A stretch of 64,000 nucleotides of DNA from an uncultured Thermoleophilia bacterium (GTDB taxonomy: Bacteria > Actinomycetota > Thermoleophilia > UBA2241): NCBI GenBank assembly GCA_963715985.1, contig CAVQSP010000009.1, positions 106,749 to 170,748 of the forward strand, in the 5' to 3' direction. Positions within the stretch are counted from its first letter, which is position 1; every line of letters begins with the position of its first letter. A program made the translations under genes and the position numbers. Shown here in pieces: positions 43,656-63,930 of this stretch. The notes below the pieces were generated by a model that saw only the letters and a program-made list of their open reading frames with translations, searched no databases and was not told the origin of the DNA.

Positions 43656-43881
43656 CGACGGAGCGCAGGATGCCCGTCCCCATCCCCTTCGTCCTCGTCT
43701 GACTCGGCAGGCGGCTCCCCGGCCGACCTGCCCCGGTCACCCCAGCGGCGGCGCAGGGCAGGGGAGATGTCGTACCATCCACACGACCGACGATCGCCGG
43801 CACGCCGGCAGAACACTCAACGACAGGACACTCCCGGGCGCACCGCGGCGCTGACGAGAGAGACAGGAGACGACGCACGCC

Positions 43882-44310
43882 ATGCTGTACCTGGGCCACT
43901 TCTCTTTCACGACTGCCCCGACCGACGAGGACGGGCCGTCGCACGGGGTCTTCACCTGCTGCGCCGACGCCGAGGACGTCGATGCGGCGCTCGAGAAGCT
44001 GCGCGCACTGGTCCTCCGCCTGAAGGAGGAGGACGACACGCTCGACGACGTGAGCGAGGTGTACCTCGACAGCTGCGTGGAGGTCAGGACGATGCCGGAG
44101 GCCGGCATGATGTCCTACTGGATCAAGTGGCCGCACGAGGAGACCACCTCCATCTCCACAGGGCTCCGCTGGGCCGGCGACGACGAGGCGGTCGGGTACT
44201 CCATCCTCCCCGACGACGACCACGCCGAAGATGAGCACGATCACGACCACGCTGATGACGGGGCGGACGACGACGAAGGCTACGAAGTCGAGCCGTTCGT
44301 GGAGTTCTGA
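43882..44310 (+). CDS. Hypothetical acidic protein with a His/Asp-rich tail
   Basis: RBS AGGAG, GC3-rich codons, DDDHAEDEHDHDHADD. Confidence 0.7.
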   Translation: MLYLGHFSFTTAPTDEDGPSHGVFTCCADAEDVDAALEKLRALVLRLKEEDDTLDDVSEVYLDSCVEVRTMPEAGMMSYWIKWPHEETTSISTGLRWAGDDEAVGYSILPDDDHAEDEHDHDHADDGADDDEGYEVEPFVEF

Positions 44311-44313
44311 CCC

Positions 44314-45228
44314 GTGCAGAAGGTGGACCCGAGCATGAACGCGGTGGCGGCCGCCGTCGGCGCGCCCGATTTCATCCTGCCGTGGCTCGACCGCTTCTAC
44401 GAAACGGAGGACGTGGAGCTGGTCCTCGCCGCGCCGGCCCTGGACGGGGTCGACGAGGCGCGGCTCGAGCGCGCCGTGCGTCGCGCGGTCCTCGACCGCG
44501 ACGAGGCCGGCGTGCACACGCCGGCCTCCTTCCACGGGCGCCTCGAGATCTGGGCGATGTTCGAGGGCTGGAAGGACGTGCCGCTGGCCGTGCACCGGCA
44601 ACTCGCCGACTGGGACGTCGACTACTACGCAGAGTCGATCCGCGCCGACGTCGAGGCCGTCCGCGACGGTCGCACGACCAGCGCGTACCAAGCCGCGTAC
44701 ACCTACCTGCTGCTCCCCGAGGCCGAGGCCGTCATCGCGGAGCAGGAGCACGTCTATCTGTGGCCCTGCGACTGCCGTTCTATCGTCTCGAAGTGCCGCA
44801 AGCCGCTGTTCGTCTGCCTGCGCTTCGAGAACGACCGTGGCTTGGGCTGGGAGATCTCCAAGCAGCGCGCCGTCGAGGTTTTGCACAGCAGCGACAAGGC
44901 CGGGCTCACGCACACCGACTACCTGAGCAACAGGCCGGGGGACCCGCACGCCATCTGCAACTGCTGCACCGACTGCTGCTACCCGCACCTGGCCACGGAC
45001 CGCTTGGGCACGGCTGACGTGTGGCCGGTGCGCCGGCACGTCGCCGTCATCGACATGGGTGTCTGCACGAGCTGCGGCCGCTGCGGGCTGCGCTGCCCCT
45101 TCGACGCCATCATGTGCACCGTGAGCGGCCGGCCGGCGCTCGACCCGGCGCTCTGCCGCGGCTGCGGGCTCTGCGCCACGGGCTGCAGTGCGGACGCCAT
45201 CGAGCTGCGGCCGCTCGCGGCCGGGTGA
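44314..45228 (+). CDS. 4Fe-4S binding protein
   Basis: CDCR..C..C, ICNCCTDCC, two CxxCxxCxxxC motifs. Confidence 0.85.
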   Translation: MQKVDPSMNAVAAAVGAPDFILPWLDRFYETEDVELVLAAPALDGVDEARLERAVRRAVLDRDEAGVHTPASFHGRLEIWAMFEGWKDVPLAVHRQLADWDVDYYAESIRADVEAVRDGRTTSAYQAAYTYLLLPEAEAVIAEQEHVYLWPCDCRSIVSKCRKPLFVCLRFENDRGLGWEISKQRAVEVLHSSDKAGLTHTDYLSNRPGDPHAICNCCTDCCYPHLATDRLGTADVWPVRRHVAVIDMGVCTSCGRCGLRCPFDAIMCTVSGRPALDPALCRGCGLCATGCSADAIELRPLAAG

Positions 45229-46087: not shown

Positions 46088-47527
46088 TCAGTCGGCCGGT
46101 ACGATCGCGTTCAGGCGCTCGGTCAGCTCCTCCGGAGCGCCGGCGCCTCGTGCGTCGCGAGCAGCTCGAGCGCCTTGCGGCGGGCCTTCTCCGTGGCGTC
46201 CAGCCCGCCGCCGTCTATCCAGCGGTCGTAGCTGGCGCGGTTGAGCAGCTGGGCGCGCCACTGGCTGCTGCGCAGGTGGCGCCTGGTGTGCCGCTGGCCG
46301 AGGTAGTCGCCGCCGGGGCCGACGGCCTTGAGCACGTCCACGGCCAGCGTCTCGTCCGAGACCTCGATCTCGGCGAGCAGGCGCCGGTCGCGGGCGATGA
46401 ACTCGGCCGCCAGCACGACCTCGGCGAGCGAATCCGGAGAGGCCGAAGTCCATGTAGCCGACGTCGTGGTTGAGGTTGGCGCCCAGCTGCATGGAGAGCT
46501 TGATGAGCTCGTCGGCCTCCATGCCGGCCTGGGCGTCCACGACCTGCGCGTCGGTGTGGCCGCTGAACCCCCAGTTGGGGATGTCCAGCCACTTGGCCAT
46601 CTCCACCTCGCAGGCATAGGCGCGCGTGAACTCGGGCGAGTTGTACGACGACTGCGACGTCGCCATGTCCAGCGTGTTGGGGCCCTGCCCGATGACGAAC
46701 GGGCGCTCCGGGGACCCGGAGCTGGTGCATGACGAGGCCGAACAGCGCCTCGGCCACGCCGAGCGTGATCTGGCCGGCGGTGGTGATCGGGGCGGTGCCG
46801 CCGGCGACCGGCGACGGGCAGTAGGTGGACGGGACGCCGTGGTCGGCGCAGAACAGCAGCTTGTCCACCGTCTCGAACGGGTGCTTGAGCGGCGTGACGG
46901 GCTGGTTGTACATGACGAAGTAGGGCTTCTCGCGCAGCGCCTCGGCGCCGCCGCGGACCTCGCAGGCCATCCGCCACATGGGCTCCACGGTCTCCACGCC
47001 GCCGGCCGTCATCACGAGCGGCTTGGTGGTGGCCGGGATCATGGCGCGGAACTGCTTGCGGGTAGGCCTCCCGCGCGTCCATGCCGTCGGGGTAGGCGCC
47101 CGACATGACGAAGTCGATGTCGGGCAGGGCGTCGCAGAGACGCGCCGCCTCGGTGACGTCTTCGAGCTTGCCGAGGCGGCGTTCGCCGGTCTCCAGGTCG
47201 TGCAGGTGCATCACGTCGGAGCCGTTGCCGAAGTACGAGCCTCGGCCGCCGAGGTCCATGGCCGGCTCGCCGTCGCGGTCGTAGACGACGAAGCTCGACG
47301 GCACCGACTCGCGCGCCTGCTCGACAAGGGCGGCGCGGGACGTGGACGAGGCCGTCGCCGTCCTTCGTGCAGCCGCCCTCGAGCATGACCTGCTCGCCCT
47401 CCTCGTGGAGGACGACCATGCCGATGTCGGCGAGGATGCCGAGGGCCGTCTCGTAGATGCGCCGCTTCTGCTCTTCGCTGAGGAAGCTGACGCGGCCGGC
47501 GCCGATCTCCTTGCTGCTGTCTGACAT
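46088..47527 (-). CDS. MttB-family methyltransferase, non-Pyl (His at the Pyl position), several frameshifts
   Basis: [58 protein letters not shown]. Confidence 0.88.
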
Positions 47528-47612
47528 GGTCGCTCCTCGGGATGGTGGTGCAAAGGCCAGGCGCCGCCGCCACGGACGGCGCGCCTGGCCGAACACTACA
47601 CCGTCCGGCGGC

Positions 47613-49088
47613 CTAGTGCACGTCCAATTCGCGTTCTGCGGCATCGATAATCGACTTAAGTTCTGCCGCGACCGCGTCCGGGCAGCGGCTCCGGCCGGTG
47701 CGTCTCGAGGATGCGCCGGGCCTCGGCGAGGGCGCGGTCGTAGAGCGTCGTCGACCCGTCGGCGGCCCACTCCTCGCGGACCCGGCGGTCGATGAGACCT
47801 GCTCCGCGACTGGTCGCGCATGCCTTTGTACGTGTCGTCGTGGGCGAGGAAGTCGTTGAACGGCCCGATCTCGGCGATGACGTCCACGGCGAGCGTCTCG
47901 TCGCTCACCGGGATGCCCGGCACGCAGTACTTGACCATGCGCGCGAACTCCGCGTCCATGACCAGCTGCGCGTAGTCGATGGTGACGCCCGATTCCAGCA
48001 TCCCCAGCCCGTAGATCAGGTTGGCCCCTGCCAACGCCGGCAGCAGGCTGGTGATCGTCTTCTCGTGTCCGGATTGGGCGTCCGACACTTTGGAGTCGCC
48101 CTACGCACCGGCGACCCAGCTGGGCAGCAGGTAGTAGCGCGCCAGGCAGGCCACGCCGGCGCCGATCATGCCGCACTCGGGGCTGCCCACCGAGGCGCTG
48201 GCGAAGCGCAGGTCCAGAGCCGTGGTGGACGAGCCGTAGATGACCGGGCGTGCCGCGCTCCGTGAGCTGCGCCAGCGTGATGCCGCTGAGCACCTCGGCG
48301 TTGTGGCCGACCAGCGTGCCGGCCAGGCTCACCGGCGACGACCCGCCGGCCATGGCCATGGAGAGCACGTTGACGGGGATGCCGGCGCGGGCGCCCTCGA
48401 TGATGATGCGGCAGACGTCGGCGACCAGCTTGAGCGGGCTCACCGGGCAGGTGAGGAACGAGAGGATGGGGCGGCGGCGGAGCTCGTCGTGCCCGCCGGC
48501 GATGGCCGCCGCCATGTCGATCATCTTGCGCGCGCAGAAGCCCGTGAGCGGGCCGATGGTGGCGTGCTTCGTGGTGTTGCTGAAGATGGCCTCGGCGTTG
48601 TGCAGCGCCGCCGTGTCCTGCGGCGACGTCGTGGGCGCCCAGCGGCCGCTCCACCACGTCGATCTCGGGCAGCGCGTCGATGATCCTGCGTGCAGTCGGC
48701 GACGTCCTGCTTGCGCGACTCGTGCAGCTCGCCGGTGTACGGGTCGACGACCTGGATGCCCTCGCCGAAGTTGGTGAAGCCGACGCGGCCGTCCTCAAGG
48801 ACGACGTCCCGGGCCGGGTCGCGCCCGCACATCACGACCTTGGGCGGCGCCGAGCGGATCGCGTCCTCCACGAGGTGCGCCGGGATGCGCACCACGCCGC
48901 GTCTCGCGATCGACCTCGGCGCCGGCCGCCGGCGAAGATCTCCTGCGCCTCCGCGTCCTCCACGAAGACACCGGTGCGCGCCAGTACCTCCAGCGTCGCG
49001 AGATGGATCTCGTGAGCTCGTCGTCGGTGAACACCTCGAGCCTGAAGCCGCCGCTCTTGCGCGCTCCTGCGCGCGGGTTACGGATCAT
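47613..49088 (-). CDS. mttB: Trimethylamine:corrinoid methyltransferase with in-frame amber (pyrrolysine) at 48101-48103; several frameshifts
   Basis: [36 protein letters not shown][TAG][27 protein letters not shown]; ~490 codons. Confidence 0.9.
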
Positions 49089-49091
49089 CGG

Positions 49092-50488
49092 TCAGCCTCC
49101 CGCCGTGCGTTCCTTGAACTTCTCGACGCTGTTGATGGGCACGTCCAGCACGCGCGCGATGTTGAACTTGGCCTCGATCTGGTTGGCCTGCCAGGGCTGG
49201 CTGATGGCGTAGCTGTGGACGCGCCCGAACCCGTGCTCGTTGCGCACGTCGGTCATCACGACCGGGTCCGAGAGGTCGAACGGCGTGACGCCGAGCTTGT
49301 CGGCCACGTACTGCTTGGCTTCCGTGAGGCGCATGCCCCGAGTCATCTGCATACGGGCAACCAGGTCTCCGCCTGCCCGAATACCGCCGATGCTCGCCGC
49401 CTGCGCGTGCGCGTTGTGCATGCCGTGCGGGTCGCCCGAGCCGACCTACAAGCCGTCCACGTGCAGCAGCTCGACGAACGACTTGGCCGCCCGGCAGACG
49501 GCGTCCGAGGGCAGGTGCACGAACATCGGCACGCCGCCGACGCCCATGCCGGCGTTGGGGTGCACGGGGATCTCGGCGACCTCCATGCAGGGCTTGATGA
49601 GGGCGATGGCGCGGGCCATGTTCCAGGCCAGCGACTTGCCGGTGTTGACGTTGACGACGGGCCCGAACATGGTGGCGCCGGCCTTCTGCGCGAGCAGCAG
49701 CTGGTCCTTGGGCCACAGCCCGGCGAGGCGCACGCCCTCCCACTCGAGCTGGCCGTGCATGCCGAGCACGAACTCGCCGGCCATGCCCAGCTGCACGCCC
49801 ATGTCGGGGTACTTCTCGCGGATGATCTTCGTGGCGCGCAGCGCGGCCAGGAACTCGGGGTCGCCGGAGGCGCCGGTGGTGTCCCAGTCGATGGCGTCGG
49901 CGCCGGCCTCCCACTGCGAGTCGGCGAGGTTGACCATGTCGACGACGGCCATCTCGACGGCCTCTTCGGCGGCCGCCCGCGCCTCGGCGATCTTGCCCAG
50001 CGGCAAGCAGCTCGTTCCAGTTGTCGCAGGGCCCGTCGGGCTTGGAGTAGAGGCCCAGGTTGGGCATCACGCCGTACTGCAGCGGGGCGATGGTGCAGAG
50101 CTGCGCGTCGTGCATGTACTGGGCCTCGTAGGCGAGGATGGTGCGCACCACCTTGAGCGAGTAGTCGCCGACGCAGAGCTCGAGCAGGTCGGCGCCCATC
50201 CACTGCTCGTAGGACTGCAGGTCCTGGATGCGCGTGGCGTGCGTCTTCATGCCCCGTGCCGTCGCAGCTGAGGACGATCTCCTCGCCGACGTCGACGCCG
50301 ATGAAGCGCAGCGGCGAGGCGTAGATGTCGAGCAGGTGGTCGATCTCGTCGTCGGTGAGCGGCGCCACCTTGGCGCGCTTCACGGCCGCCGCCACGCCCG
50401 CCTCGAGATCGGCGCGGATCTCGCTGCGCGTCAGCCGCGCAAAGGTGCCGTCGCCCATGCGGGTCGGCACCCTGGCCTCGTTCGTCAC
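49092..50488 (-). CDS. mtbB: Dimethylamine:corrinoid methyltransferase with in-frame amber (pyrrolysine) at 49446-49448; frameshifts ~50255 and ~50005
   Basis: TRMGDG, MPNLGLYSKPDGP, DTTGASGD, GMAGEFVLGMHG, GMGVGGVPM, DGL[TAG]VGSGDP, GIRAGGDLVARMQ; ~465 codons. Confidence 0.93.
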
Positions 50489-50531: not shown

Positions 50532-50590
50532 CTAATCGACCGGTCAATTAGCTGATAGACAGTCCACACCAGCGCACGCGGCGATGTCAA
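50532..50590. promoter_or_regulatory. Palindromic operator and minus-strand -35 upstream of mtbB
   Basis: CTAATCGACCGGTCAATTAG (near-perfect 20-bp palindrome, 50532-50551); minus-strand TTGACA at 50585-50590. Confidence 0.7.
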
Positions 50591-50682
50591 GAGCGGCCGG
50601 GCGCTGGCGTCGCACGGGTATCATCGCGCCGTGCGCGCAGTGCGGCGGCAGAAGCGAAGACGGAGACGGAAGAAGGCGGCGG

Positions 50683-52140
50683 ATGAGAGCGCACACGACC
50701 TGGCTGAGCGAGGCCGAGAAGAGCAGGATCGTCGACGCAGGCGATGGAGCCTGCTCGGGAACGTGGGCATGCGCTTCGCCGGCTCGAGCGTGCTGCCCCT
50801 GCTGGCGGAGCGCGGGGCGGACGTGGACGAGGCCACCGGGCTCGTCCGTCTTCCCCGCGAGCTCGTGGAGTGGGCGGTCGGCCAGTGCCCCCGCCGGATC
50901 GTCATGGCCGGCCTCGACGGAGGCGGACGACGTGCGTGCTGGACGAGGGCGAGCCCTTCCACTTCGCGCCCAGCGGCTGCGTCGCGAAGACGCTCGACTT
51001 CCGCAGCGGGCGAGCGCCGCGCCAGCACGCTGCAGGACGTGCGCGAGTGCACGGCCCTCAACGACGAGCTGCCCGAGCTCGACATCATGTGGACGCAGGT
51101 GAGCGCATCCGACGTGCCGCTGGAGGCACGCGAGCTCACCGAGTACTTCACGCTGCTCACCGAGACGCGCAAGCACGTGACCTTCGTCGACTGCCCTACG
51201 GAGGTCGACGCGGTCGTGCGGCTCTGCGAGGCCCTGGCGGGCGACCTGGAGCGCTTCCGCGCCCGCCCGCGCATCTCCACCGTGGTCACCGCGGCGTCGC
51301 CGCTGCAGGTGGACGGCGGCATCCTCGACGTGCACGTGGCGCTGGCGCGGCACGGCGTGCCCGTCAAGATCTACTCGATGGCCATCGCCGGGGCGACGGC
51401 GCCGGTGACGCTGGCCGGCACGGTGGTGCAGGGTCTCGCCGAGTTCCTCGGCGTCGCCACGGCGCTGCAGGTGGCGGCGCCCGGGCGCGCGCCTCGTCTT
51501 CTGCTTCGGCTCGGGCGTGCTCGACATGCGCCAGACGACGTTCGCGCTGGGCTGCGTGGAGGCGCGCTGATGGCGGCCATGGCCACCGAGGTCGGCCACC
51601 ACGTCGGCGTGCCGACCCTCAGCCCCGGCTTCTCGACCGACGCCCGGCACGTCGCCCTGCAGGACGGCTACGAGAAGGCGATGAAGGCGGCGACAGTGTG
51701 CGCCGCCAACCCGGACGTCGTCACCGGCTGGGGGCTCGTGGACTCGCACAACACGATGTCGCTGCCGCAGTCGGTCATCGACAACGAGATGGCCGGCATG
51801 CTGCAGGCGGCTGAACCGGCCGGTCGAGGTCTCCGACGCCACGCTCGCCGCCGAGGCCTTCGACGCCGTCGGGCCGGGCGGCGGGTTCCTCGGCCGCAAG
51901 GAGACGGCCAAGCGCATCCGCGCCGGCGAGCACTACCTGCCGACCCTCTCGAGCCGGCTCTCCTACGAGAAGTGGGTGGAGCAGGGCGCGACGGAGTACG
52001 ACGAGGCCTGCGCGCGCGTGGAGGCGCTGCTGGCCGCGCACGCCTCAAGGAGCCGTACATCGACGGCGCGCTGCTGGACGAGATCGCGGCCATCTGCCGC
52101 GTGGACGACGACGCCGTGCGCCGAGCACGGCGCGAAGTGA
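50683..52140 (+). CDS. MttB-family methyltransferase, non-Pyl (Ser at the Pyl position), several frameshifts; end approximate
   Basis: FAPSGC, TAASPLQ, MAIAGATAPVTLAG, PGFSTDAR, VGPGGGFL. Confidence 0.85.
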
Positions 52141-53349: not shown

Positions 53350-54127
53350 ATGGAGATCAGCGACTTCTCGATGGACTTCTTCTCCCTCAAGGGGAAGAAC
53401 GCCATCGTCACCGGCGGCAACACGGGCCTCGGCCAGGCCTTCGCCCTGGCGCTAGCCAAGGCCGGCGCCAACGTCTTCGTGCCGAGCATCATGGACGACG
53501 ACGGCTCCACGAGGAAGCTCATAGAGGGCGAGGGCGTCCACTACGAGTTCCTGAAGGCCGACATCACCGCCGCGCGGCGTGCCCGCCAGGTCGTCGGCGA
53601 GCTGCGTCGACGCGCTTCGGCTCCTGGACATCCTCGTGAACTGCGCCGGCATCTGCCCGCTCGCCGCGGTGCTGGAGTTCGGCCGCGAGCAGTGGGACGC
53701 CACCGTGGCCGTGAACCTCACGGCGGCCTTCGAGATGAGCTACGAGGCCGCCAAGCACATGGTGCCGCGGCGCAGCGGCAAGATCATCAACATCTGCTCG
53801 CTGTTCTCGTTCCTGGGCGGCCGCTGGTCGTCCGCGTACGCGGCCACCAAGCACGGCCTGGCCGGGTTCACCAAGGCGTACTGCGACGAGCTCGCCGAGC
53901 TCGGCATCCAGGTCAACGGCATCGCCCCGGGCTACTACGCCACGGCCATCACCACGGCCACGCGCAGCGACCCCGAGACCAACAAGCGCGTGCTGGACCA
54001 CATCCCGGCCGCACGCTGGGGCGACCCGGCCGACCTCATGGGCGCCACCGTCTTCCTCGCCAGCCGCGCCTCCGACTACGTCAGCGGCCACGTCCTGGTG
54101 GTCGACGGCGGCTACCTCGTCCGCTAG
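53350..54127 (+). CDS. KduD/YgcW-like SDR oxidoreductase (frameshifts ~53575-53610)
   Basis: FSLKGKNAIVTGGNTGLG, YAATKHG, QVNGIAPGY. Confidence 0.85.
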
Positions 54128-54143
54128 GGCGCGGGAGGCACGC

Positions 54144-55575
54144 ATGGCTGGCAAGTACGTCATCGGCATCGACAACGGCACCCAGAGCTCCAAGGTCGTC
54201 ATCTACGATCTCGAGGGCACCGTCGTCTGCGAGGCCAAACGGACGCTACTTCCGATGGAGCACCCGCAGCTGGGCTATGCCGTGCATCCCGACGACGACC
54301 TCTGGGAGTCCATCGTCGCGGCAAGCCGCGAGGTGATGACGAAGTTCACCGGCGACCCCGCGCGACATCCTCGGCGTCGGCCTCTGCACCATCCGCTGCT
54401 GCAAGGCCTTCCTCAAGGCCGACGGCACGCTGCTCGAGCCCGTGATGAGCTGGATGGACACACGCGCCTACCAGCCCTGGCTGCCGGACGATCCCGAGCT
54501 CGCCTGCGCCACCACCTCGTCCGGCTACATGACCCACCGGTTCACCGGGCAGTTCCGCGACAGCGCCGCCAACAACATCATCCTGCAGTGGCCCATCGAC
54601 ACCGACACGTGGCAGTGGGATCCCGCGCTGTTCGAGCAGTTCAACATGCGTCCGGAGCTGCTGGTGGAGTTGCAGATGCCGGGTGACATCGCCGGCTACG
54701 TGACCGCAGACGCGGCGGCGGCGACCGGCATCCCGGAGGGCCTGCCGGTCGTGACCACCGCCAACGACAAGGCGGTCGAGGCGCTCGGCTCCGGGTCGCT
54801 CGACGAGCGCACGGCCCTCATCTCGCTGGGCACCTACATCGCCTCCATGGTGCACGGGCGCGAGAACCGCCAGGAGGCTGTGGACTTCTGGACGAACTTC
54901 GCCTGCATCCCCGGCCGCTACCTCTACGAGAGCGGCGGGGTGCGCCGCGGCATGTGGACCCTCAGCTGGTTCCTCGACCTGCTGGGGCCGGAGTTCGCGG
55001 CGGCGGCGGCGAGCCAGGGCACCTCCCGCGAGGAGTACCTCGAGCGGGAGGCCGAGCTGGTCCCCGCCGGGAGCTGCGGCCTCATGACGGTCCTGGACTG
55101 GCTCGCCCCCACCGACAAGCCCTTCCGCAAGGGCGAGATCATCGGCTTCGACGCGCGTCACACCAGGGCCCACGTCTACCGCTCGATCCTCGAGGCCATC
55201 GCCTTGACGATGAAGCAGAACGTCGACGCCATGTGCGCCGAGCTCGGCATCGACCTGCGCGAGATCGTCGTCTCGGGCGGCGGCTCCAACAGCCCCCTCT
55301 TCATGAACATCTTCTCTGACGTGTTCGGCGTGCCCGCGTCGCGCAACGTCGGCAGCAGCGGCGCGAGCCTCGGATCCGCCATCTGCGCAGCCGTGGCCAC
55401 CGGTGCGTATTCCGACTTCGCGACCGCTGCCGGCGCCATGAAGCAGGGTCGCGAGTCCTTCGCTCCGAACCTGGAGAACCACGACGTCTACCGGCGCATG
55501 AACGAGAAGGTCTACCGCGCCATCCACGGCGCTACCGACCCGATCCTCGAGCGCTCGTTCTCGATCTTCCACTGA
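54144..55575 (+). CDS. FGGY-family carbohydrate kinase (YgcE-like), frameshift ~54360
   Basis: IGIDNGTQSSK, TANDK, SLGT, SGGGSNS. Confidence 0.88.
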
Positions 55576-58954: not shown

Positions 58955-59003
58955 AGATTATTCGTCTCCCAGCTTGACTCGGCGAACATCTGGCTGAAAT
59001 ACT
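58955..59003 (+). promoter_or_regulatory. Promoter of lrp, homologous to 53243-53289
   Basis: TTGACT-18-AATACT with the shared AGAT..TTC.TCT.CC.GCTTGAC...GAACAT context. Confidence 0.65.
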
Positions 59004-59039
59004 CCCCCTTTGAAAGACACTCGTTGTAAGGGGGATGGT

Positions 59040-59504
59040 GTGGACGCTCTGGACCGGCAAGTCCTTCTGGCCTTGCAGACCGACGGCCGCATGTCCAACC
59101 TCGCTCTTGCACGCTCTCTCGACCTCTCGCCGTCGGCCATGCTCGGCCGCGTGCGCCGCCTCGAAGCCGGCGGCGCCATCCGCGGCTATCGCGCCGTCAT
59201 CGACCCGGCTGCCCTCGGCATCACCGTGCGGGCGCTCGTGGTGGCGCGCCTGCGCGAGCACAGCGAGCGCTCCATCCAGGCGTTCGAAGACGGCATCCGC
59301 ACGGTGCCCGGTGTGCGCGCCTGCTACCACGTCACCGGGCAGTTCGACATGGTGGTCGAGCTGGCGCTGCGCGACCTCGACCACCTCGGCCAGCTCATCC
59401 GCGTGGACATCGCCCGCATCCCCGGGGTCATGAACCTCGAGACGATGCTGATCATGGCCGAACCCGTCGAAGACCAAGGCTGGCCCAACGTCACTCAAGG
59501 GTAG
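59040..59504 (+). CDS. Lrp/AsnC-family regulator
   Basis: DALDRQVLLALQTDGRMSN HTH, CYHVTGQFD. Confidence 0.92.
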   Translation: MDALDRQVLLALQTDGRMSNLALARSLDLSPSAMLGRVRRLEAGGAIRGYRAVIDPAALGITVRALVVARLREHSERSIQAFEDGIRTVPGVRACYHVTGQFDMVVELALRDLDHLGQLIRVDIARIPGVMNLETMLIMAEPVEDQGWPNVTQG

Positions 59505-59555
59505 TCCGTGGCGCTCGCGCCGCGGCGATCCGCACCGCACAGGAGGTCCACCCCC

Positions 59556-60410
59556 ATGCCCGCGAAGAAAGGTCTCTTCGACCTGCACGAGATGAAGCGC
59601 GCCGGCGAGCAGATCGCCTGGCTCACCGCCTACGACTACCCGACGGCGCAGTTCGAGGAGGCGGCCGGCGTCGACATGATCCTCGTCGGCGACTCGCTGG
59701 GCATGTGCGTCTACGGCTACCCCGGCACCGTCCCGGTGACCATGGACCAGTGCCTCGTGCACAGTGAGGCGGTGCGCCGCGGCGCCCCGGACACCTTCGT
59801 CCTCGGCGACATGCCGCTGGGCAGCTACCAGGCCTGCGACGCAGACGCCGTGCGCAACGCCATCCGCTTCCTCAAAGAGGCGAACGTCGACGCCGTCAAG
59901 CTCGAGGGCGGCGTGCGCACGCTCTCCCGCGTCACGGCGATCCTCGCGGCCGGCGTCGCCGTCTGCGGCCACATCGGGCTCACGCCGCAGTCCTCGGGGC
60001 AGCTCGGCGGGCACAAGGCGCAGGGCCGCACCCTCGCCTCGGCCCAGCTCGTCGTCGAGGACGCCCGCGCCCTCGACGAGGCCGGCGTCCAGCTCCTCCT
60101 CGTCGAGGCCGTGCCCCCCGAGGTCGCCGCCTTCATCGCCCGCGAGCTGCCCATCCCCGTGCTCGGCATCGGGGCCGGCGCCGACGTCGACGGGCAGCTG
60201 CTCATCGTCAGCGACGTGCTCGGCACCTTCGCCGCCTTCACGCCCAAGTTCGTGAAGCAGTACGCCGACCTCGCCGCCCTCTCCACGGCGGCCCTTGCCG
60301 AGTACGTCGCCGACGTGCGCGGCAACGCCTTCCCCGAGGAGCAGCACTGCTACCGCATGCTCGAGGGCGAGGCGGCGAAGTTCGGGGAGTGGGCCGCGGC
60401 CGGCGACTGA
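59556..60410 (+). CDS. panB: 3-methyl-2-oxobutanoate hydroxymethyltransferase
   Basis: LTAYD, LVGDSLG, AVKLEGG, GHIGLTPQ, GIGAG, PKFVK. Confidence 0.92.
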   Translation: MPAKKGLFDLHEMKRAGEQIAWLTAYDYPTAQFEEAAGVDMILVGDSLGMCVYGYPGTVPVTMDQCLVHSEAVRRGAPDTFVLGDMPLGSYQACDADAVRNAIRFLKEANVDAVKLEGGVRTLSRVTAILAAGVAVCGHIGLTPQSSGQLGGHKAQGRTLASAQLVVEDARALDEAGVQLLLVEAVPPEVAAFIARELPIPVLGIGAGADVDGQLLIVSDVLGTFAAFTPKFVKQYADLAALSTAALAEYVADVRGNAFPEEQHCYRMLEGEAAKFGEWAAAGD

Positions 60411-60446: not shown

Positions 60447-61710
60447 ATGCTGCACGAACTCGATGACCTCACCGCGCCGGGCAGCGTTCACGCCGGCTTC
60501 ACGCCCGCGGAGCGCGTGGCGCGGCTCGGCACCGAGACGGTGTTCGCCGTCTCGTCCGAGGCGGCCGCGCTCGCCGCGACGGGCAAGACCATCTACCCGT
60601 TCCACCTCGGCGACCTCAACATCCCGACGGCGGAGCCGATCGTCGAGGCCATGAACCAGGCCATCCGCGACGGCAAGACCACGTACTGTCCCAACGCTGG
60701 CATCATGCCCTTGCGCGAGGCGCTGGCCGCGGATGTGAGCGCCGCCCGCGGCGTCACCTACACCGCCGACAACGTCTCGGTGCAGCCGGGCGGCAAGCCG
60801 GTCATCGGCAAGTTCCTCATGGCCGCCATGAACATGGGCGACGAGGTCCTCTACCCCAACCCCGGCTTCCCGATCTACGGTTCGTTCATCGAGTTCGTCG
60901 GCGGGGTCGCCGTCCCCTACGGCTACGTGGACGCCGGCGACCGCTACACCATCGACATCGACGAGCTCGAGCGCCGCATCACGCCGCGCACGCGCCTGCT
61001 CATCCTGAACGACCTGCACAACCCGACGGCGGCCGAGTGCCCGCCCGAGGAGCTGGACCGCATCGCCGAGATCGCCCTCGAGCACGACCTCGTCGTGCTC
61101 AGCGACGAGGCGTACTTCGACGTGCGCTTCGCGGGCGCCAGCGGATCGATCGTCTCGCGCCCGGGCATGCAGGAGCGCACCGTCATCCTCTACACGTTCA
61201 GCAAGAAGTACGCGATGACCGGCTGGCGCCTGGGCGCGGCCGTCGGGCCCAAAGCCCATCATCGACATCGTCACTCGGCTGAACGTGAACATGGAGTCGT
61301 GCCCCAACCACTTCGCCCAGTACGGCGCCCTGGCGGCGCTCACCGGCGACCAGGCGGGCCCTCGCGAGATGATGGCCCGGCTCAAGGGGAGGCGCGACGC
61401 AGCGCTCCGCCTCCTCAACGCCACGCCGGGCGTCAGCTGCCACACGCCCGGGTCGACGTTCTACCTCTACCCGGACGTCACCGGCGCCATCCGCATGACC
61501 GGCTGCGCCGGCCACGAGGACTTCCGCCGCCTCCTGCTCGAGCAGACCGGCGTCTCGTTCTGCACCCGGCAGCACTTCGGGAAGGCAGTGCCGGGCGAGA
61601 CCGGATACCATCTACGTCTCGCCTACTCCGGCGTCACCACCGCACAGATCGAGGAGGGCCTCGGCGCGTTCAAGGCCTTCATCGAGTCGACAGAGCCCGC
61701 AGAGTCCTAG
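60447..61710 (+). CDS. Class I/II PLP aminotransferase (aspartate aminotransferase-like), frameshift ~61255
   Basis: PGGK, HNPT, SDEAY, FSKKYAMTGWRLG, FYLYP, LRLAY. Confidence 0.9.
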
Positions 61711-61731: not shown

Positions 61732-63187
61732 ATGACCGACAAGCCTGCCGCCGCGCTCGAGAGCCGCCTCAGGATGCTCTCGGACGAGAAGTGCCAGATG
61801 ATCTACGACGCCGCGCTCACGATCATCGCCGACATCGGCATGACCGTGCCGCACGCCGAGGCGCGCGACATCCTCGTCAAGGGCGCCGGCGCCAGCGTCG
61901 AAGGCGAGGACCTGGTGAAGATCCCGCGCGATGCCGTGGCCGCCGCGCGCGACTCCGTGCCGGCCATGATCCGCGTCTACGACCGTAACGGCGAGCTCGC
62001 CATGCAGCTCGGCGGCTACAACTCGTACTTCGGCACGGGCTCGGACCTCATGAGCATCTACGACTTCGAGACCGCGCGAGCGCCGCCCGAGCGTGCTCGC
62101 CGACACGGCGCGCATGGCGCACCTGTGCGACGGCCTCCCCAACATCGACTTCATCATGTCGGCCGCCCACCCGCACGACATCCAGGCGTACGCCTCCTAC
62201 CTCGAGTGCTACCGCGTCATGGTGAGCAACACCACCAAGCCCATGGTGATGACTGCCGCGTCCAGGGACGACATCGAGGTCATGTGGAAGATCGCCTGCG
62301 CGTTCCGCGGCGGCGCCGAGGAGCTGCGCGCCAAGCCGTACTTCATCCACTACGGCGAGCCGGTGAGCCCGCTGCAGCACGCGCCCGAGGTGCTCGACAA
62401 ACTGCTCTTCTGCGCCGACTGGGGCATCCCGCTCATCTACTCGCCGGCGCCGATCGCCGGCGCCACCGCGCCCATGACCCACGCCGGCCACATCGTGCAG
62501 GCCGTGGCCGAGTCGCTCTTCGGCGCCGTCATCCACCAGCTGCGCCGCCCCGGCTCGCCGCTGCTCACCGGCATGGGCCCGGTCAAGCTCGACATGAACA
62601 CCGTGCAGGCGCTCTACAACTCGGCCGAGTACTACACCACGTACCTCGGCATCACCGAGATGGCCAAGTGGATGGACATCCCCAACTGGGGCTACGCCGG
62701 CACCAGCGACTCGCAGTGTGTGGACGCCAACGCCGGCATCGACATCGCCGAGCTCACGCTGCTCTCCATGCAGGCCGGGTCCAACCTCAACCACGACATC
62801 GGCTACCTGGACTTCGGCCTCACCTGCGCCGGCGAGCTCGTGGTGCTCACGGACGAGGTCATCTCCATGAACCGCCGCGCGCTCGAGGGCATCGAGGTCA
62901 GCGAGGAGACGCTGGCGCTGGACACGATCGCCGCGGTCGGTCGCGGCGGCGACTTCCTCGGCCAGAAGCACACCAAGCGGCACGTGCGGGACCTGCAGTG
63001 GCGGCCCACGATCCTCAACCGCGCCACTCAGAAGAACTGGGAGGCCGAGGGCTCGCTCGACGCCACCGAGAAGGCGCACCGCAAGCTCGTGGACATCATG
63101 ACGAACCACACGCCCGAGCCGCTCAGCGCCGAGATGAAGCAGACCATGGACGAACTCGTCGACGCCTACGTGGCGGCCGGCGCGTGA
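61732..63187 (+). CDS. MttB-family methyltransferase, non-Pyl (Thr at the Pyl position), frameshift ~62080
   Basis: YFGTGSD, EPVSPL, AGATAPMTHAG, WGYAGTSDSQ, HDIGYLDFG. Confidence 0.9.
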
Positions 63188-63204: not shown

Positions 63205-63930
63205 ATGTCCCAGCAGCTCTACGAGCAGATGAAGCAGAGCGTCATCGACGGCGAGGTCGAGGACGCCGAGCGCCTCGCCCAGGAGGGCCTCGACGCCGGC
63301 CTACCCGCCGGCGACATCCTCGACGCCGGTTTCGTGAAGGGCATCGAGGAGGTCGGCGAGCTCTTCGGGCGCGGCGAGTTCTTCCTCCCCGAGCTCGTGC
63401 AGGGGGCGGAGGCGATGAAGGCCGCGGTGCGCGTCCTGCAGCCCGCCCTCGACGCCTCCGGCGGCGGCAGGCAGGCGCTCGGCGTGGCCGTCGCCGGGAC
63501 GGTGGCCGGCGACATCCACGAGATCGGCAAGACGATCGTCTGCAGCATGCTCTCGCCGCCGGCTTCACCGTCACCGACGTGGGCTGCGACGTGCCCGTCG
63601 AGACCTTCATCGCGAACTGCAAGGAGACGGACGCCGACCTGCTCCTGCTCAGCGCCCTGCTGACCACGACGATGCCCAACCAGCAGAAGACGATCGCAGG
63701 CGCTGAAAGAAGCCGGTCTGCGCGACAAGGTGAAGGTGATGATCGGCGGCGCCCCCACGACGCGGGCCTGGGCCGACGAGATCGGCGCCGACGGCTACGC
63801 CGAGGACGCCATCGAGGCGGTCGTCGCGGCGAAGGCGCTGCTGGGGGTGGAGAGAGGCGCCGGCCCGCAGAGTGGCAGTCTCACGCCGGCGCCCGTTCCA
63901 CGGCCCGCTCGTAGGGCACCTTGGCAGTGA
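63205..63930 (+). CDS. Methyltransferase cognate corrinoid protein (MttC/MtbC-like), frameshifted; end uncertain
   Basis: GEFFLPEL, GTVAGDIHEIGK (DxHxxG), SALLTTTM, VMIGGAP, IGADGYAEDA. Confidence 0.9.

What the first reader, a model, noticed from the sequence alone, without database searches (positions are those of the whole stretch)
47613..50488. Genetic-code expansion: tandem mtbB-mttB each with an in-frame UAG at the pyrrolysine site in a very GC-rich bacterium
Seen: ...VDGL-TAG-VGSGDPHGM... (49446-49448) and ...[23 protein letters not shown]... (48101-48103). In both, family homology continues in the same frame after the TAG. Known: Methanosarcina MtbB and MttB have catalytic Pyl at these motifs; bacterial Pyl is best documented in Firmicutes and Deltaproteobacteria. 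Inference: this organism, probably an actinobacterium, decodes UAG as Pyl and demethylates TMA to DMA to MMA. A non-Pyl paralogue is in the same operon. ORF callers split both genes.
Basis: partly seen in the sequence, partly recalled or inferred. Interest (0 to 1): 0.88.

Follow-up and report, generated by a model that had tools for sequence, protein, structure and literature searches.

The report
Pyrrolysine-coded methylamine genes in Thermoleophilia
Two neighbouring genes for breaking down tri- and dimethylamine use the stop codon UAG for the rare amino acid pyrrolysine in an uncultured actinobacterium that carries the full machinery for it; similar bacteria are already in print, and the genes look broken here mostly because of assembly errors.

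Summary
On the minus strand, TAG lies at 49446-49448 in an mtbB homologue and at 48101-48103 in an mttB homologue, with homology continuing in frame. The mttB TAG aligns with the non-standard residue X of solved Methanosarcina barkeri MttB.

The genome holds pylB-pylC-pylD-pylT-pylSn and pylSc on another contig. It also holds 8 full-length mtbB copies, each with one TAG, 10 TAG-bearing mttB copies and 2 TAG-bearing mtmB copies. The TAGs are kept in 7 of 7 mtbB and 9 of 9 mttB orthologous loci of same-genus genomes.

Orthologues are intact, dN/dS is low, and short-read contigs lack the extra bases. The frameshifts are therefore most likely assembly errors.

The organism sits among Thermoleophilia MAGs. 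PylSc was found in 73 of 79 genomes of its family. Pyl-encoding mttB and mtbB in Actinobacteriota are already published (PMC10805028; PMC9630628). This is a new member of a known kind, of moderate interest.

The parts
49092..50488 (-). mtbB homologue (dimethylamine:corrinoid methyltransferase). GTG start at 50488, TGA stop at 49092-49094. As assembled it lies in three frames.
   Evidence: Pfam Dimeth_Pyl pieces cover model positions 4-73, 84-170 and 156-462 of 463. tblastn with intact paralogues shows frames -1, -2, -3. The C-terminal piece scores 313.8 bits on TIGR02368. Intact orthologues score 412-416 bits against a cut-off of 369.1.
49446..49448 (-). In-frame TAG of mtbB, the predicted pyrrolysine codon.
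   Evidence: Conserved in 7 of 7 orthologous loci. All 8 full-length paralogues have exactly one TAG.
50255..50255 (-). One-base insertion relative to three intact orthologues (GGG read as GGGG). First frameshift in mtbB.
   Evidence: Short-read contigs of four runs lack one base at 50252-50256.
50006..50006 (-). One-base insertion relative to three intact orthologues. Second frameshift in mtbB.
47613..49088 (-). mttB homologue (trimethylamine:corrinoid methyltransferase). ATG at 49088, 3 nt after the mtbB stop. Ends in TAG at 47613-47615. As assembled it holds 8 one-base indels (49015 deletion; 48932, 48903, 48688, 48625, 48248, 47797, 47679 insertions).
   Evidence: Two pieces score 256.8 and 186.4 bits on TIGR02369. 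Intact orthologues score 741-743 bits against a cut-off of 525. Short-read contigs lack a base at 48625/48626 and 48689.
48101..48103 (-). In-frame TAG of mttB, the predicted pyrrolysine codon.
   Evidence: It aligns with the residue written X in chain 7xcl_A, M. barkeri trimethylamine methyltransferase. Conserved in 9 of 9 orthologous loci.
46123..47527 (-). Non-Pyl MttB-superfamily paralogue, third gene of the operon, probably a methyltransferase for another methylated amine. Five assembly-specific one-base indels (47335, 47057, 46703, 46433 insertions; 46136 deletion).
   Evidence: Pfam MTTB pieces at window 46129-47334. Translation. Indels. Short-read contigs lack a base at 47059.
50739..52038 (+). 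Divergently transcribed MttB-superfamily gene without TAG, with one frameshift as assembled.
   Evidence: Pfam MTTB matches at G000:C9:157487-158557 and 158553-158786, in two frames.

Best explanation
The window holds a three-gene operon on the minus strand: mtbB, mttB and a non-Pyl MttB paralogue. The host is an uncultured Thermoleophilia (Actinomycetota) bacterium that reads certain UAG codons as pyrrolysine.

The Pyl machinery lies on another contig. PylB, PylC and PylD make pyrrolysine from lysine. The split synthetase PylSn + PylSc charges tRNA-Pyl (anticodon CUA). That tRNA inserts Pyl at the single in-frame UAG of each methyltransferase.

MttB and MtbB then pass a methyl group from trimethylamine or dimethylamine to the Co(I) of a corrinoid protein encoded elsewhere. 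A pterin-binding methyltransferase probably carries the methyl on to tetrahydrofolate. RamA-type activators repair oxidised corrinoid.

UAG is not reassigned genome-wide. It still ends about 19% of genes, so decoding is ambiguous, as in other Pyl bacteria. The 15 one-base frameshifts in the three genes of this copy are most likely consensus errors of the assembly, not decay.

Shown here: the codons, their conservation, the machinery, family membership and the lineage distribution. Inferred: actual Pyl insertion, substrates, the methyl acceptor, and that the frameshifts are artefacts.
For: **TAG positions.** The TAGs sit at the family's Pyl position. The mttB TAG aligns to X of 7xcl_A.

**Pyl machinery.**
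- tRNA-Pyl (CUA) is found by ARAGORN. Its fold allows a 6-bp anticodon stem and a 3-nt variable loop, by my reading.
- Scores against curated cut-offs: pylSc 316.5 bits (178.15), pylSn 124.6 (51.15), pylC 317.9 (248.3), pylD 199 (150.05).
- pylB scores 303.8 + 125.8 bits in two frames against a cut-off of 348.2.

**Pyl-type methyltransferases in the genome.**
- 8 of 8 full-length Dimeth_Pyl matches have exactly one TAG.
- 10 MTTB matches spanning the Pyl region have one TAG.
- 2 MtmB matches have one TAG.

**Conservation in orthologues.**
- Orthologous loci are 85-91% identical in DNA.
- They keep the TAG in 7 of 7 mtbB and 9 of 9 mttB loci.
- mtbB is in one frame in 6 of the 7 loci that cover it, and mttB in 7 of 9; both genes are unbroken in 5 loci, L056 holding only part of mttB.
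- Two intact orthologue pairs pass the NCBIfam equivalog cut-offs: 412 and 416 bits against 369.1, and 741 and 743 bits against 525.

**Frameshifts are probably errors.**
- There are 14 insertions and 2 deletions, all single bases and all specific to this assembly, against three intact orthologues.
- dN/dS of the window against orthologues is 0.08-0.12 for mtbB, versus 0.06-0.16 among orthologues. For mttB it is 0.20-0.31 versus 0.12-0.25.
- Apart from the TAG, no stop codon appears once the indel columns are dropped.
- Short-read contigs of 4 runs lack one base at 5 of the 14 insertion sites, among the 12 indel rows shown.

**Co-occurrence across genomes.** PylSc is present in 45 of 49 same-genus and 73 of 79 same-family genomes. 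The locus itself matches in 18 of 18 same-genus genomes.

**Downstream parts.** There are 35 B12-binding matches, 2 RACo/RamA matches, and a pterin-binding gene beside one RamA.
Against: - No protein or mass-spectrometry data exist, and no reads of the source sample were seen. The contigs laid were short, 115-281 bases, and came from mixed related populations at 90% identity or more.
- Only 40 of 423 substitution rows and 12 of 46 indel rows were shown. The TAG positions themselves could therefore not be checked in reads.
- Indels are far denser here than elsewhere. There are 16 in 4.4 kb, against stretches of 3 kb and more in one frame in the same window. A uniform error rate does not explain this.
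- dN/dS of mttB is slightly higher for the window copy than among orthologues.
- No corrinoid-protein gene lies beside this operon. The nearest B12-binding match is at window 63555-63825.
- TAG ends 474 of 2530 confidently coding frames. After TAG there is no enrichment of back-up stops: median 61.5 codons to the next in-frame stop, against 58 after TGA (Mann-Whitney p = 0.84). How read-through of ordinary genes is avoided is unknown.
- The bin is 88.8% complete with 7.29% contamination. The operon and the pyl cluster lie on different contigs.
Confidence: 0.8

Rival explanations
1. The organism decodes Pyl, but this particular mtbB-mttB-paralogue operon is a decaying, non-functional copy. The frameshifts are real mutations in one of many redundant paralogues.
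For: - There are 16 one-base indels in 4.4 kb, far denser than in most of the window.
- The genome holds 10 other mtbB loci and about 9 other TAG-bearing mttB loci, so loss would cost little.
- Several other MttB paralogues are also fragmented into many pieces.
- mttB dN/dS is slightly raised, 0.20-0.31 against 0.12-0.25.
Against: - No nonsense codon and no multi-base indel appears once the single-base columns are removed.
- mtbB dN/dS is 0.08-0.12, as in intact orthologues.
- 14 of the 16 events are insertions, and several extend G/C runs. That looks like a consensus-calling bias. By my recollection, bacterial pseudogene decay is deletion-biased.
- Short-read contigs from four runs lack the extra base at the five sites shown.
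- Two other few-contig genomes of the genus show different frameshifts in the same genes (L049, L050).
Confidence: 0.14
2. The TAGs are true stops. Either the genes are naturally split or inactive, or the pyl cluster comes from another organism wrongly binned with this contig.
For: - Contamination of the bin is 7.29%, and the two loci lie on different contigs.
- TAG is a common genuine stop in this genome, at 18.7% of coding frame ends. mttB itself ends in TAG.
Against: - PylSc is present in 45 of 49 same-genus genomes, and the operon matches in 18 of 18. The two travel together in many independent bins.
- GC content is 0.70-0.71 on both contigs.
- The TAG is conserved at the catalytic Pyl position in all orthologues and paralogues, and homology continues for 115-162 codons after it.
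Confidence: 0.03

Closest known systems
Methanosarcina barkeri MttB (PDB 7xcl, 7xcm, 7xcn) and MtbB/MtmB methylamine:corrinoid methyltransferases
   Same: Same protein families: TIGR02369 and TIGR02368 equivalogs for the intact orthologues. The window's mttB piece matches 7xcm_A at E = 1.6e-45, and its TAG aligns with the Pyl residue, written X in 7xcl_A. Each gene has one in-frame UAG.
   Different: The host is bacterial, so the methyl acceptor is probably tetrahydrofolate through a pterin-binding enzyme rather than coenzyme M. That is inferred. The synthetase is split into PylSn + PylSc rather than fused. No cognate corrinoid-protein gene lies beside this operon.
Bacterial Pyl systems of Firmicutes and Deltaproteobacteria (Desulfitobacterium hafniense, Acetohalobium arabaticum, Bilophila, delta1 symbiont of Olavius algarvensis)
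   Same: pylSn and pylSc are separate genes, together with pylBCD and pylT. UAG is still used as a stop. Tandem mtbB/mttB genes occur. I read passages of PMC1976440 and PMC9630628.
   Different: - The phylum differs (Actinomycetota).
- Gene order is pylB-pylC-pylD-pylT-pylSn, then about 3 kb holding a radical-SAM protein and a B12-binding protein, then pylSc on the opposite strand.
- The gene count is far larger: about 11 mtbB, 10 mttB and 2 mtmB with TAG. The delta1 symbiont had 8 Pyl methyltransferases, then called the largest number in bacteria (PMC1976440, passage).
Actinobacteriota MAGs of Stordalen Mire expressing Pyl-encoding mttB and mtbB (Ellenbogen et al. 2023, PMC10805028), and the 'two Actinobacteria' with PylRS in Guo et al. 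2022 (PMC9630628)
   Same: Same phylum, same two gene families, and a wetland setting. The runs holding related sequence here are wetland, soil and freshwater-sediment metagenomes. This is the nearest published precedent. I read passages only.
   Different: The passages I saw do not name Thermoleophilia. Searching 'pyrrolysine' with 'Thermoleophilia' gave one unrelated paper. They give no pyl cluster, copy numbers or lineage-wide distribution. Their supplements, which may hold these, were not seen. That the genus RBG-16-64-13 named there belongs to Thermoleophilia is my recollection, not a tool result.

Membership tests
MtbB, dimethylamine:corrinoid protein Co-methyltransferase (Pfam PF09505, NCBIfam TIGR02368) | Full-length similarity to the family model above the curated cut-off | tested here: inconclusive
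   The window copy covers model positions 4-462 of 463, but in three frames (395.9 + 78.7 + 56.8 bits on Pfam against a cut-off of 25). Its largest piece scores 313.8 bits on TIGR02368, below the whole-protein cut-off of 369.1. Intact orthologues, 86-89% identical in DNA over the locus, score 412.1 and 416.3 bits, above the cut-off.
MtbB, dimethylamine:corrinoid protein Co-methyltransferase (Pfam PF09505, NCBIfam TIGR02368) | Single in-frame UAG at the conserved Pyl position | tested here: met
   TAG lies at 49446-49448 in the DGL-O-VG.GDP.GM motif. The same column holds TAG in 8 of 8 full-length paralogues and 7 of 7 orthologous loci. Equivalence to Pyl-356 of M. barkeri MtbB1 is recalled and interpolated from model coordinates. 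It was not aligned to that protein.
MttB, trimethylamine:corrinoid protein Co-methyltransferase (Pfam PF06253, NCBIfam TIGR02369) | Similarity to the TMA-specific equivalog model, as opposed to non-Pyl MttB-superfamily members | tested here: inconclusive
   Two window pieces score 256.8 and 186.4 bits on TIGR02369 and hit no other family. The whole gene cannot be scored because of 8 frameshifts. Intact orthologues score 741.1 and 742.9 bits against a cut-off of 525.
MttB, trimethylamine:corrinoid protein Co-methyltransferase (Pfam PF06253, NCBIfam TIGR02369) | In-frame UAG at the catalytic Pyl position of M. barkeri MttB | tested here: met
   The TAG residue aligns with X in 7xcl_A, within SYVAGS-X-SDAKV, and with K in 7xcm_A. 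It is conserved in 9 of 9 orthologous loci.
Pyrrolysine decoding system (pylT, pylS, pylBCD) | tRNA-Pyl with CUA anticodon | tested here: met
   ARAGORN calls tRNA-Pyl (cta) at G000:C13:555126-555198, with the fold. The same tRNA lies beside pylSc in 18 of 33 related loci. 13 of the 15 misses are loci under 13 kb that are cut at a contig end.
Pyrrolysine decoding system (pylT, pylS, pylBCD) | Pyrrolysyl-tRNA synthetase (PylSc catalytic part plus PylSn tRNA-binding part) | tested here: met
   TIGR02367 scores 316.5 bits (cut-off 178.15) and TIGR03912 scores 124.6 bits (cut-off 51.15).
Pyrrolysine decoding system (pylT, pylS, pylBCD) | Biosynthesis genes pylB, pylC, pylD | tested here: met
   pylC scores 317.9 bits (cut-off 248.3) and pylD 199 bits (cut-off 150.05). 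pylB scores 303.8 + 125.8 bits in two frames, each piece below 348.2, because of one frameshift in the assembly.
Pyrrolysine decoding system (pylT, pylS, pylBCD) | Pyl actually incorporated at UAG in the proteins | not testable with these tools
   This needs LC-MS/MS of MtbB and MttB peptides, or an amber-suppression assay.

The most novel reading that the evidence does not exclude
A whole family-level lineage of wetland and soil Thermoleophilia inherited pyrrolysine decoding vertically. PylSc is present in 73 of 79 family genomes and 9 of 61 genomes of one other family. It was not found in the other 260 class genomes searched, and in a separate phylum draw the only hit besides G000 was one genome of that second family (2 of 401).

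This lineage carries what may be the largest bacterial set of Pyl methyltransferase genes, about 23 in this bin. Yet about 19% of its genes still end in UAG, with no back-up stops.

If so, these actinobacteria would be a major non-methanogenic sink for methylamines in wetlands, competing with methylotrophic methanogens. They would also need a still-unknown way to tell Pyl-UAG from stop-UAG, either conditional expression of the pyl genes or a local signal.
Probability: 0.3. Interest if true: 0.6.

Novelty: new member of a known kind. Interest (0 to 1): 0.35.

Why it matters
This locus is a clean, well-supported case of genetic-code expansion outside the usual Firmicutes and Deltaproteobacteria. 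Standard gene callers split or drop every one of about 23 methylamine methyltransferase genes in this genome.

These Thermoleophilia are common in wetland and soil metagenomes. They may divert tri-, di- and monomethylamine away from methylotrophic methanogens, which bears on methane budgets.

The lineage also offers split PylSn/PylSc and tRNA-Pyl pairs from a high-GC actinobacterial background. It is a natural test case for how UAG ambiguity is tolerated when about a fifth of genes end in UAG.

As a discovery it is incremental. Pyl-encoding mttB and mtbB in Actinobacteriota, and PylRS in Actinobacteria, are already published.

Tried and rejected
- **Reads.**
  - No run held half or more of the sampled words; the best share was 0.30.
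  - The four runs laid gave only short contigs, 115-281 bases, from mixed related populations.
  - The output showed 40 of 423 substitution rows and 12 of 46 indel rows. The TAG positions could therefore be neither confirmed nor refuted in reads. None of the 40 shown rows lies at them.
  - Low-cover bins (47570-47726, 48826-48982, 50553-50700) say nothing.
- **Calling ORFs by GC3 alone in the orthologous loci.** This could not tell sense from antisense frames. I replaced it with tblastn.
- **Flanks of G003 (L060, L061).** They showed no synteny with the window. A two-reference map of indel density across the whole window was therefore not made. Only a one-reference check on the 11 of 29 G001 ORFs that matched the window at 75% identity or more was done.
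- **Adaptation to UAG read-through.**
  - TAG ends 474 of 2530 coding frames, so it is not depleted.
  - The distance to the next in-frame stop does not differ from that after TGA (p = 0.84).
  - The result is negative.
- **In-frame TAG at 59502-59504 and in-frame TGA at 44308-44310.** I considered these as further recoding sites. The first is the stop of an AsnC-type regulator followed in frame by panB. The second most likely separates two adjacent genes.
- **Literature.** 'pyrrolysine' with 'Thermoleophilia' gave 1 unrelated paper. 'pyrrolysine' with 'Actinomycetota' gave 8 papers (6 listed); none of the listed titles or abstracts concerns this lineage, and I opened only one.
Full report
**1. 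The observation**

The window is 66-74% G+C. On the minus strand the bases at 49446-49448 and 48101-48103 read TAG. Recognisable MtbB and MttB sequence lies on both sides of each TAG in the same frame.

Gene limits:
- mtbB runs from GTG at 50488 to TGA at 49092-49094.
- mttB starts at ATG 49088, three bases later, and ends in TAG at 47613-47615.
- A third gene, an MttB-superfamily member without TAG, runs from ATG 47527 to 46123.

Pfam models Dimeth_Pyl and MTTB match all three genes.

**2.

In this assembly the genes are broken by more than the TAG. tblastn with intact paralogues from the same genome finds mtbB in three frames and mttB in at least six successive frame segments.

I aligned the locus with three orthologous loci in which the genes are unbroken. 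Within 50488-46123 this shows 16 window-specific single-base events, 14 insertions and 2 deletions:
- 2 in mtbB;
- 1 in the 3-nt spacer;
- 8 in mttB;
- 5 in the third gene.

**3. Are the frameshifts real?**

Several results say they are probably errors.
- Orthologous loci are 85-91% identical in DNA in same-genus genomes.
- mtbB is in one frame in 6 of the 7 loci that cover it, and mttB in 7 of the 9. Both genes are unbroken in L051-L054 and L056, which holds only part of mttB. Two few-contig genomes (L049, L050) have different frameshifts.
- With the single-base columns dropped, the window copies show no stop other than the TAG.
- dN/dS against orthologues is 0.08-0.12 for mtbB, compared with 0.06-0.16 among orthologues. 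For mttB it is 0.20-0.31 compared with 0.12-0.25.
- Contigs from four public wetland, soil and sediment runs, laid at 90% identity or more, lack one base at 50252-50256, 48625/48626, 48689, 47059 and 49089. These are five of my 14 insertion sites, among the 12 indel rows shown of 46.

Against this, the density here is much higher than elsewhere. There are 16 events in 4.4 kb, while other parts of the window run 3 kb and more in one frame. I cannot explain that. I put assembly error at about 85% and true decay of this copy at about 15%.

**4. Is UAG read as pyrrolysine?**

The whole genome is 4.35 Mb in 22 contigs, 88.8% complete with 7.29% contamination. It holds a complete pyl cluster on contig C13.

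| Part | Position on C13 | Score (bits) | Cut-off |
|---|---|---|---|
| pylB | 551949-552972 | 303.8 + 125.8, two frames | 348.2 |
| pylC | 553014-554180 | 317.9 | 248.3 |
| pylD | 554252-555034 | 199 | 150.05 |
| tRNA-Pyl (CUA) | 555126-555198 | ARAGORN call | - |
| pylSn | 556301-556558 | 124.6 | 51.15 |
| pylSc (opposite strand) | 559328-560053 | 316.5 | 178.15 |

A radical-SAM protein and a B12-binding protein lie between pylSn and pylSc.

The mttB TAG aligns exactly with the residue written X in the solved M. barkeri trimethylamine methyltransferase 7xcl_A.

The genome carries many Pyl-type methyltransferase genes:
- 11 Dimeth_Pyl loci, of which 8 are full length, each with exactly one TAG;
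- 10 MTTB matches with one TAG that span the Pyl region, among 89 MTTB rows;
- 2 MtmB matches with one TAG, plus 5 loci without.

The TAG is kept in 7 of 7 orthologous mtbB loci and 9 of 9 orthologous mttB loci. Two intact orthologue pairs pass the NCBIfam equivalog cut-offs for MtbB (412 and 416 bits against 369.1) and MttB (741 and 743 bits against 525).

**5. How it probably works**

The shown parts are listed above. The rest is inferred from the established biochemistry of these families.
- Pyl is made by PylBCD, charged by PylSn/PylSc and inserted at the one UAG of each enzyme.
- MttB and MtbB methylate a corrinoid protein. There are 35 B12-binding matches in the genome, but none beside this operon.
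- A pterin-binding methyltransferase next to a RamA-type activator at C11:149.6-151.9 kb probably passes the methyl group to tetrahydrofolate.
- A cluster at C14:682-698 kb holds mtmB, mtbB, mttB and four corrinoid-protein genes together. All three demethylation steps are therefore encoded.

UAG is not reassigned. It ends 474 of 2530 confidently coding frames (18.7%), including an AsnC-type regulator in the window and mttB itself. The distance to the next in-frame stop is the same after TAG as after TGA: median 61.5 against 58 codons, p = 0.84. Decoding is therefore ambiguous, as reported for other Pyl bacteria. How read-through of ordinary genes is limited is open.

**6. Who it is**

- The 33 nearest PylSc loci in named public genomes (68-79% identity) are titled Thermoleophilia (29), Actinomycetes or Actinomycetota (3) and Deltaproteobacteria (1).
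- They align with 2-13 kb of the cluster and its housekeeping flanks at 74-79% DNA identity, 12-13 kb wherever the locus keeps both flanks. 18 of the 33 carry the same tRNA-Pyl.
- Thermoleophilia is a class of Actinomycetota.
- In an even draw of 400 further genomes of the class, PylSc was found in 73 of 79 genomes of the window's family and 9 of 61 of one other family. It was found in none of the 260 others.
- In a draw of 400 genomes of the phylum, only one genome besides G000 had it, and that genome belongs to the second family.

In the genomes searched, the trait is a lineage character of one or two families, not a stray transfer into one bin.

**7. Comparison with what is known**

- Guo et al. 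2022 (PMC9630628, passages) list PylRS in 81 bacterial genomes. [quoted passage not shown]
- Ellenbogen et al. 2023 (PMC10805028, passages) state that some Actinobacteriota MAGs of a thawing peatland express Pyl-encoding mttB and mtbB.
- Zhang and Gladyshev 2007 (PMC1976440, passages) called 8 Pyl methyltransferases in one deltaproteobacterial symbiont the largest number in bacteria. This bin has about 23, though it is 7% contaminated and some copies may be duplicated contig ends.
- Searches for 'pyrrolysine' with 'Thermoleophilia', 'Actinobacteriota' and 'Actinomycetota' found nothing further on this lineage. The supplements of these papers were not available.

**8. Verdict**

The frameshifts are an added caveat.

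The finding is a new, well-documented member of a known kind: bacterial Pyl-dependent methylamine methyltransferases, already reported in Actinobacteriota. The lineage-wide distribution and the very large gene complement may not be in print. Interest is moderate, 0.35.

Noticed in passing
G000:C13:139538-139635 (outside the window): ARAGORN also calls a tRNA-Sec (anticodon tca). The organism may use both selenocysteine and pyrrolysine. Selenoprotein genes and selABD were not looked for.
   Followed up: no
window 58998-60410 (+): An AsnC/Lrp-type regulator ends in TAG at 59502-59504 and is followed in the same frame by panB. If UAG were read through here, the product would be a regulator-PanB fusion. 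This illustrates the cost of ambiguous UAG.
   Followed up: partly
window 43855-45228 (+): Two coding-like stretches lie in one frame, separated by TGA at 44308-44310. The second is a 4Fe-4S ferredoxin-domain protein. They are most likely two adjacent genes, but a selenoprotein was not excluded.
   Followed up: partly
window 54039-55572, 60471-61704, 50739-52038, 61762-63163: Further genes with one frame change each as assembled: an FGGY sugar kinase, an aminotransferase and two MttB-family genes. The assembly has scattered indel errors throughout, but they are densest at 46.1-49.1 kb.
   Followed up: partly
G000:C3:7432-8833 and G000:C9:168510-169911 (window 61762-63163): Two MttB-family loci on different contigs show the same split, the same model coordinates and almost the same scores (206.9 and 205.8 bits; 47.0 and 47.2 bits). 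They may be duplicated contig ends or a second strain, in line with the 7.29% contamination.
   Followed up: no
G000:C11:185068-186420, C11:311481-312830, C3:48518-49861, C14:103360-104718, C14:620367-621708: Five MtmB-family loci have no in-frame TAG (225-378 bits on Pfam MtmB), and several lie beside corrinoid-protein genes. Non-Pyl MtmB homologues are little studied and their substrates are unknown.
   Followed up: no
G000:C13:556.6-559.3 kb (L001 10602-13300): Between pylSn and pylSc lie a radical-SAM protein (L001 11243-12676, minus strand) and a B12-binding protein (C13:558583-558822). This is an unusual insertion within a pyl cluster. L001 aligns with the related loci over 12-13 kb, but whether this segment is among the aligned parts was not looked at.
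   Followed up: no
L020 (JBLMXT010000180.1, 5.7 kb contig): One of the 33 PylSc relatives is titled Deltaproteobacteria, yet it is 77% identical in protein and 77.6% in DNA over 5.6 kb to this Thermoleophilia-type cluster. It is probably a mis-binned or mislabelled contig.
   Followed up: no
G000 genome-wide: There are about 55 or more MttB-superfamily loci, 89 Pfam rows including fragments, in a 4.35-Mb bin. This very large expansion was also noted in earlier findings on this genome.
   Followed up: partly
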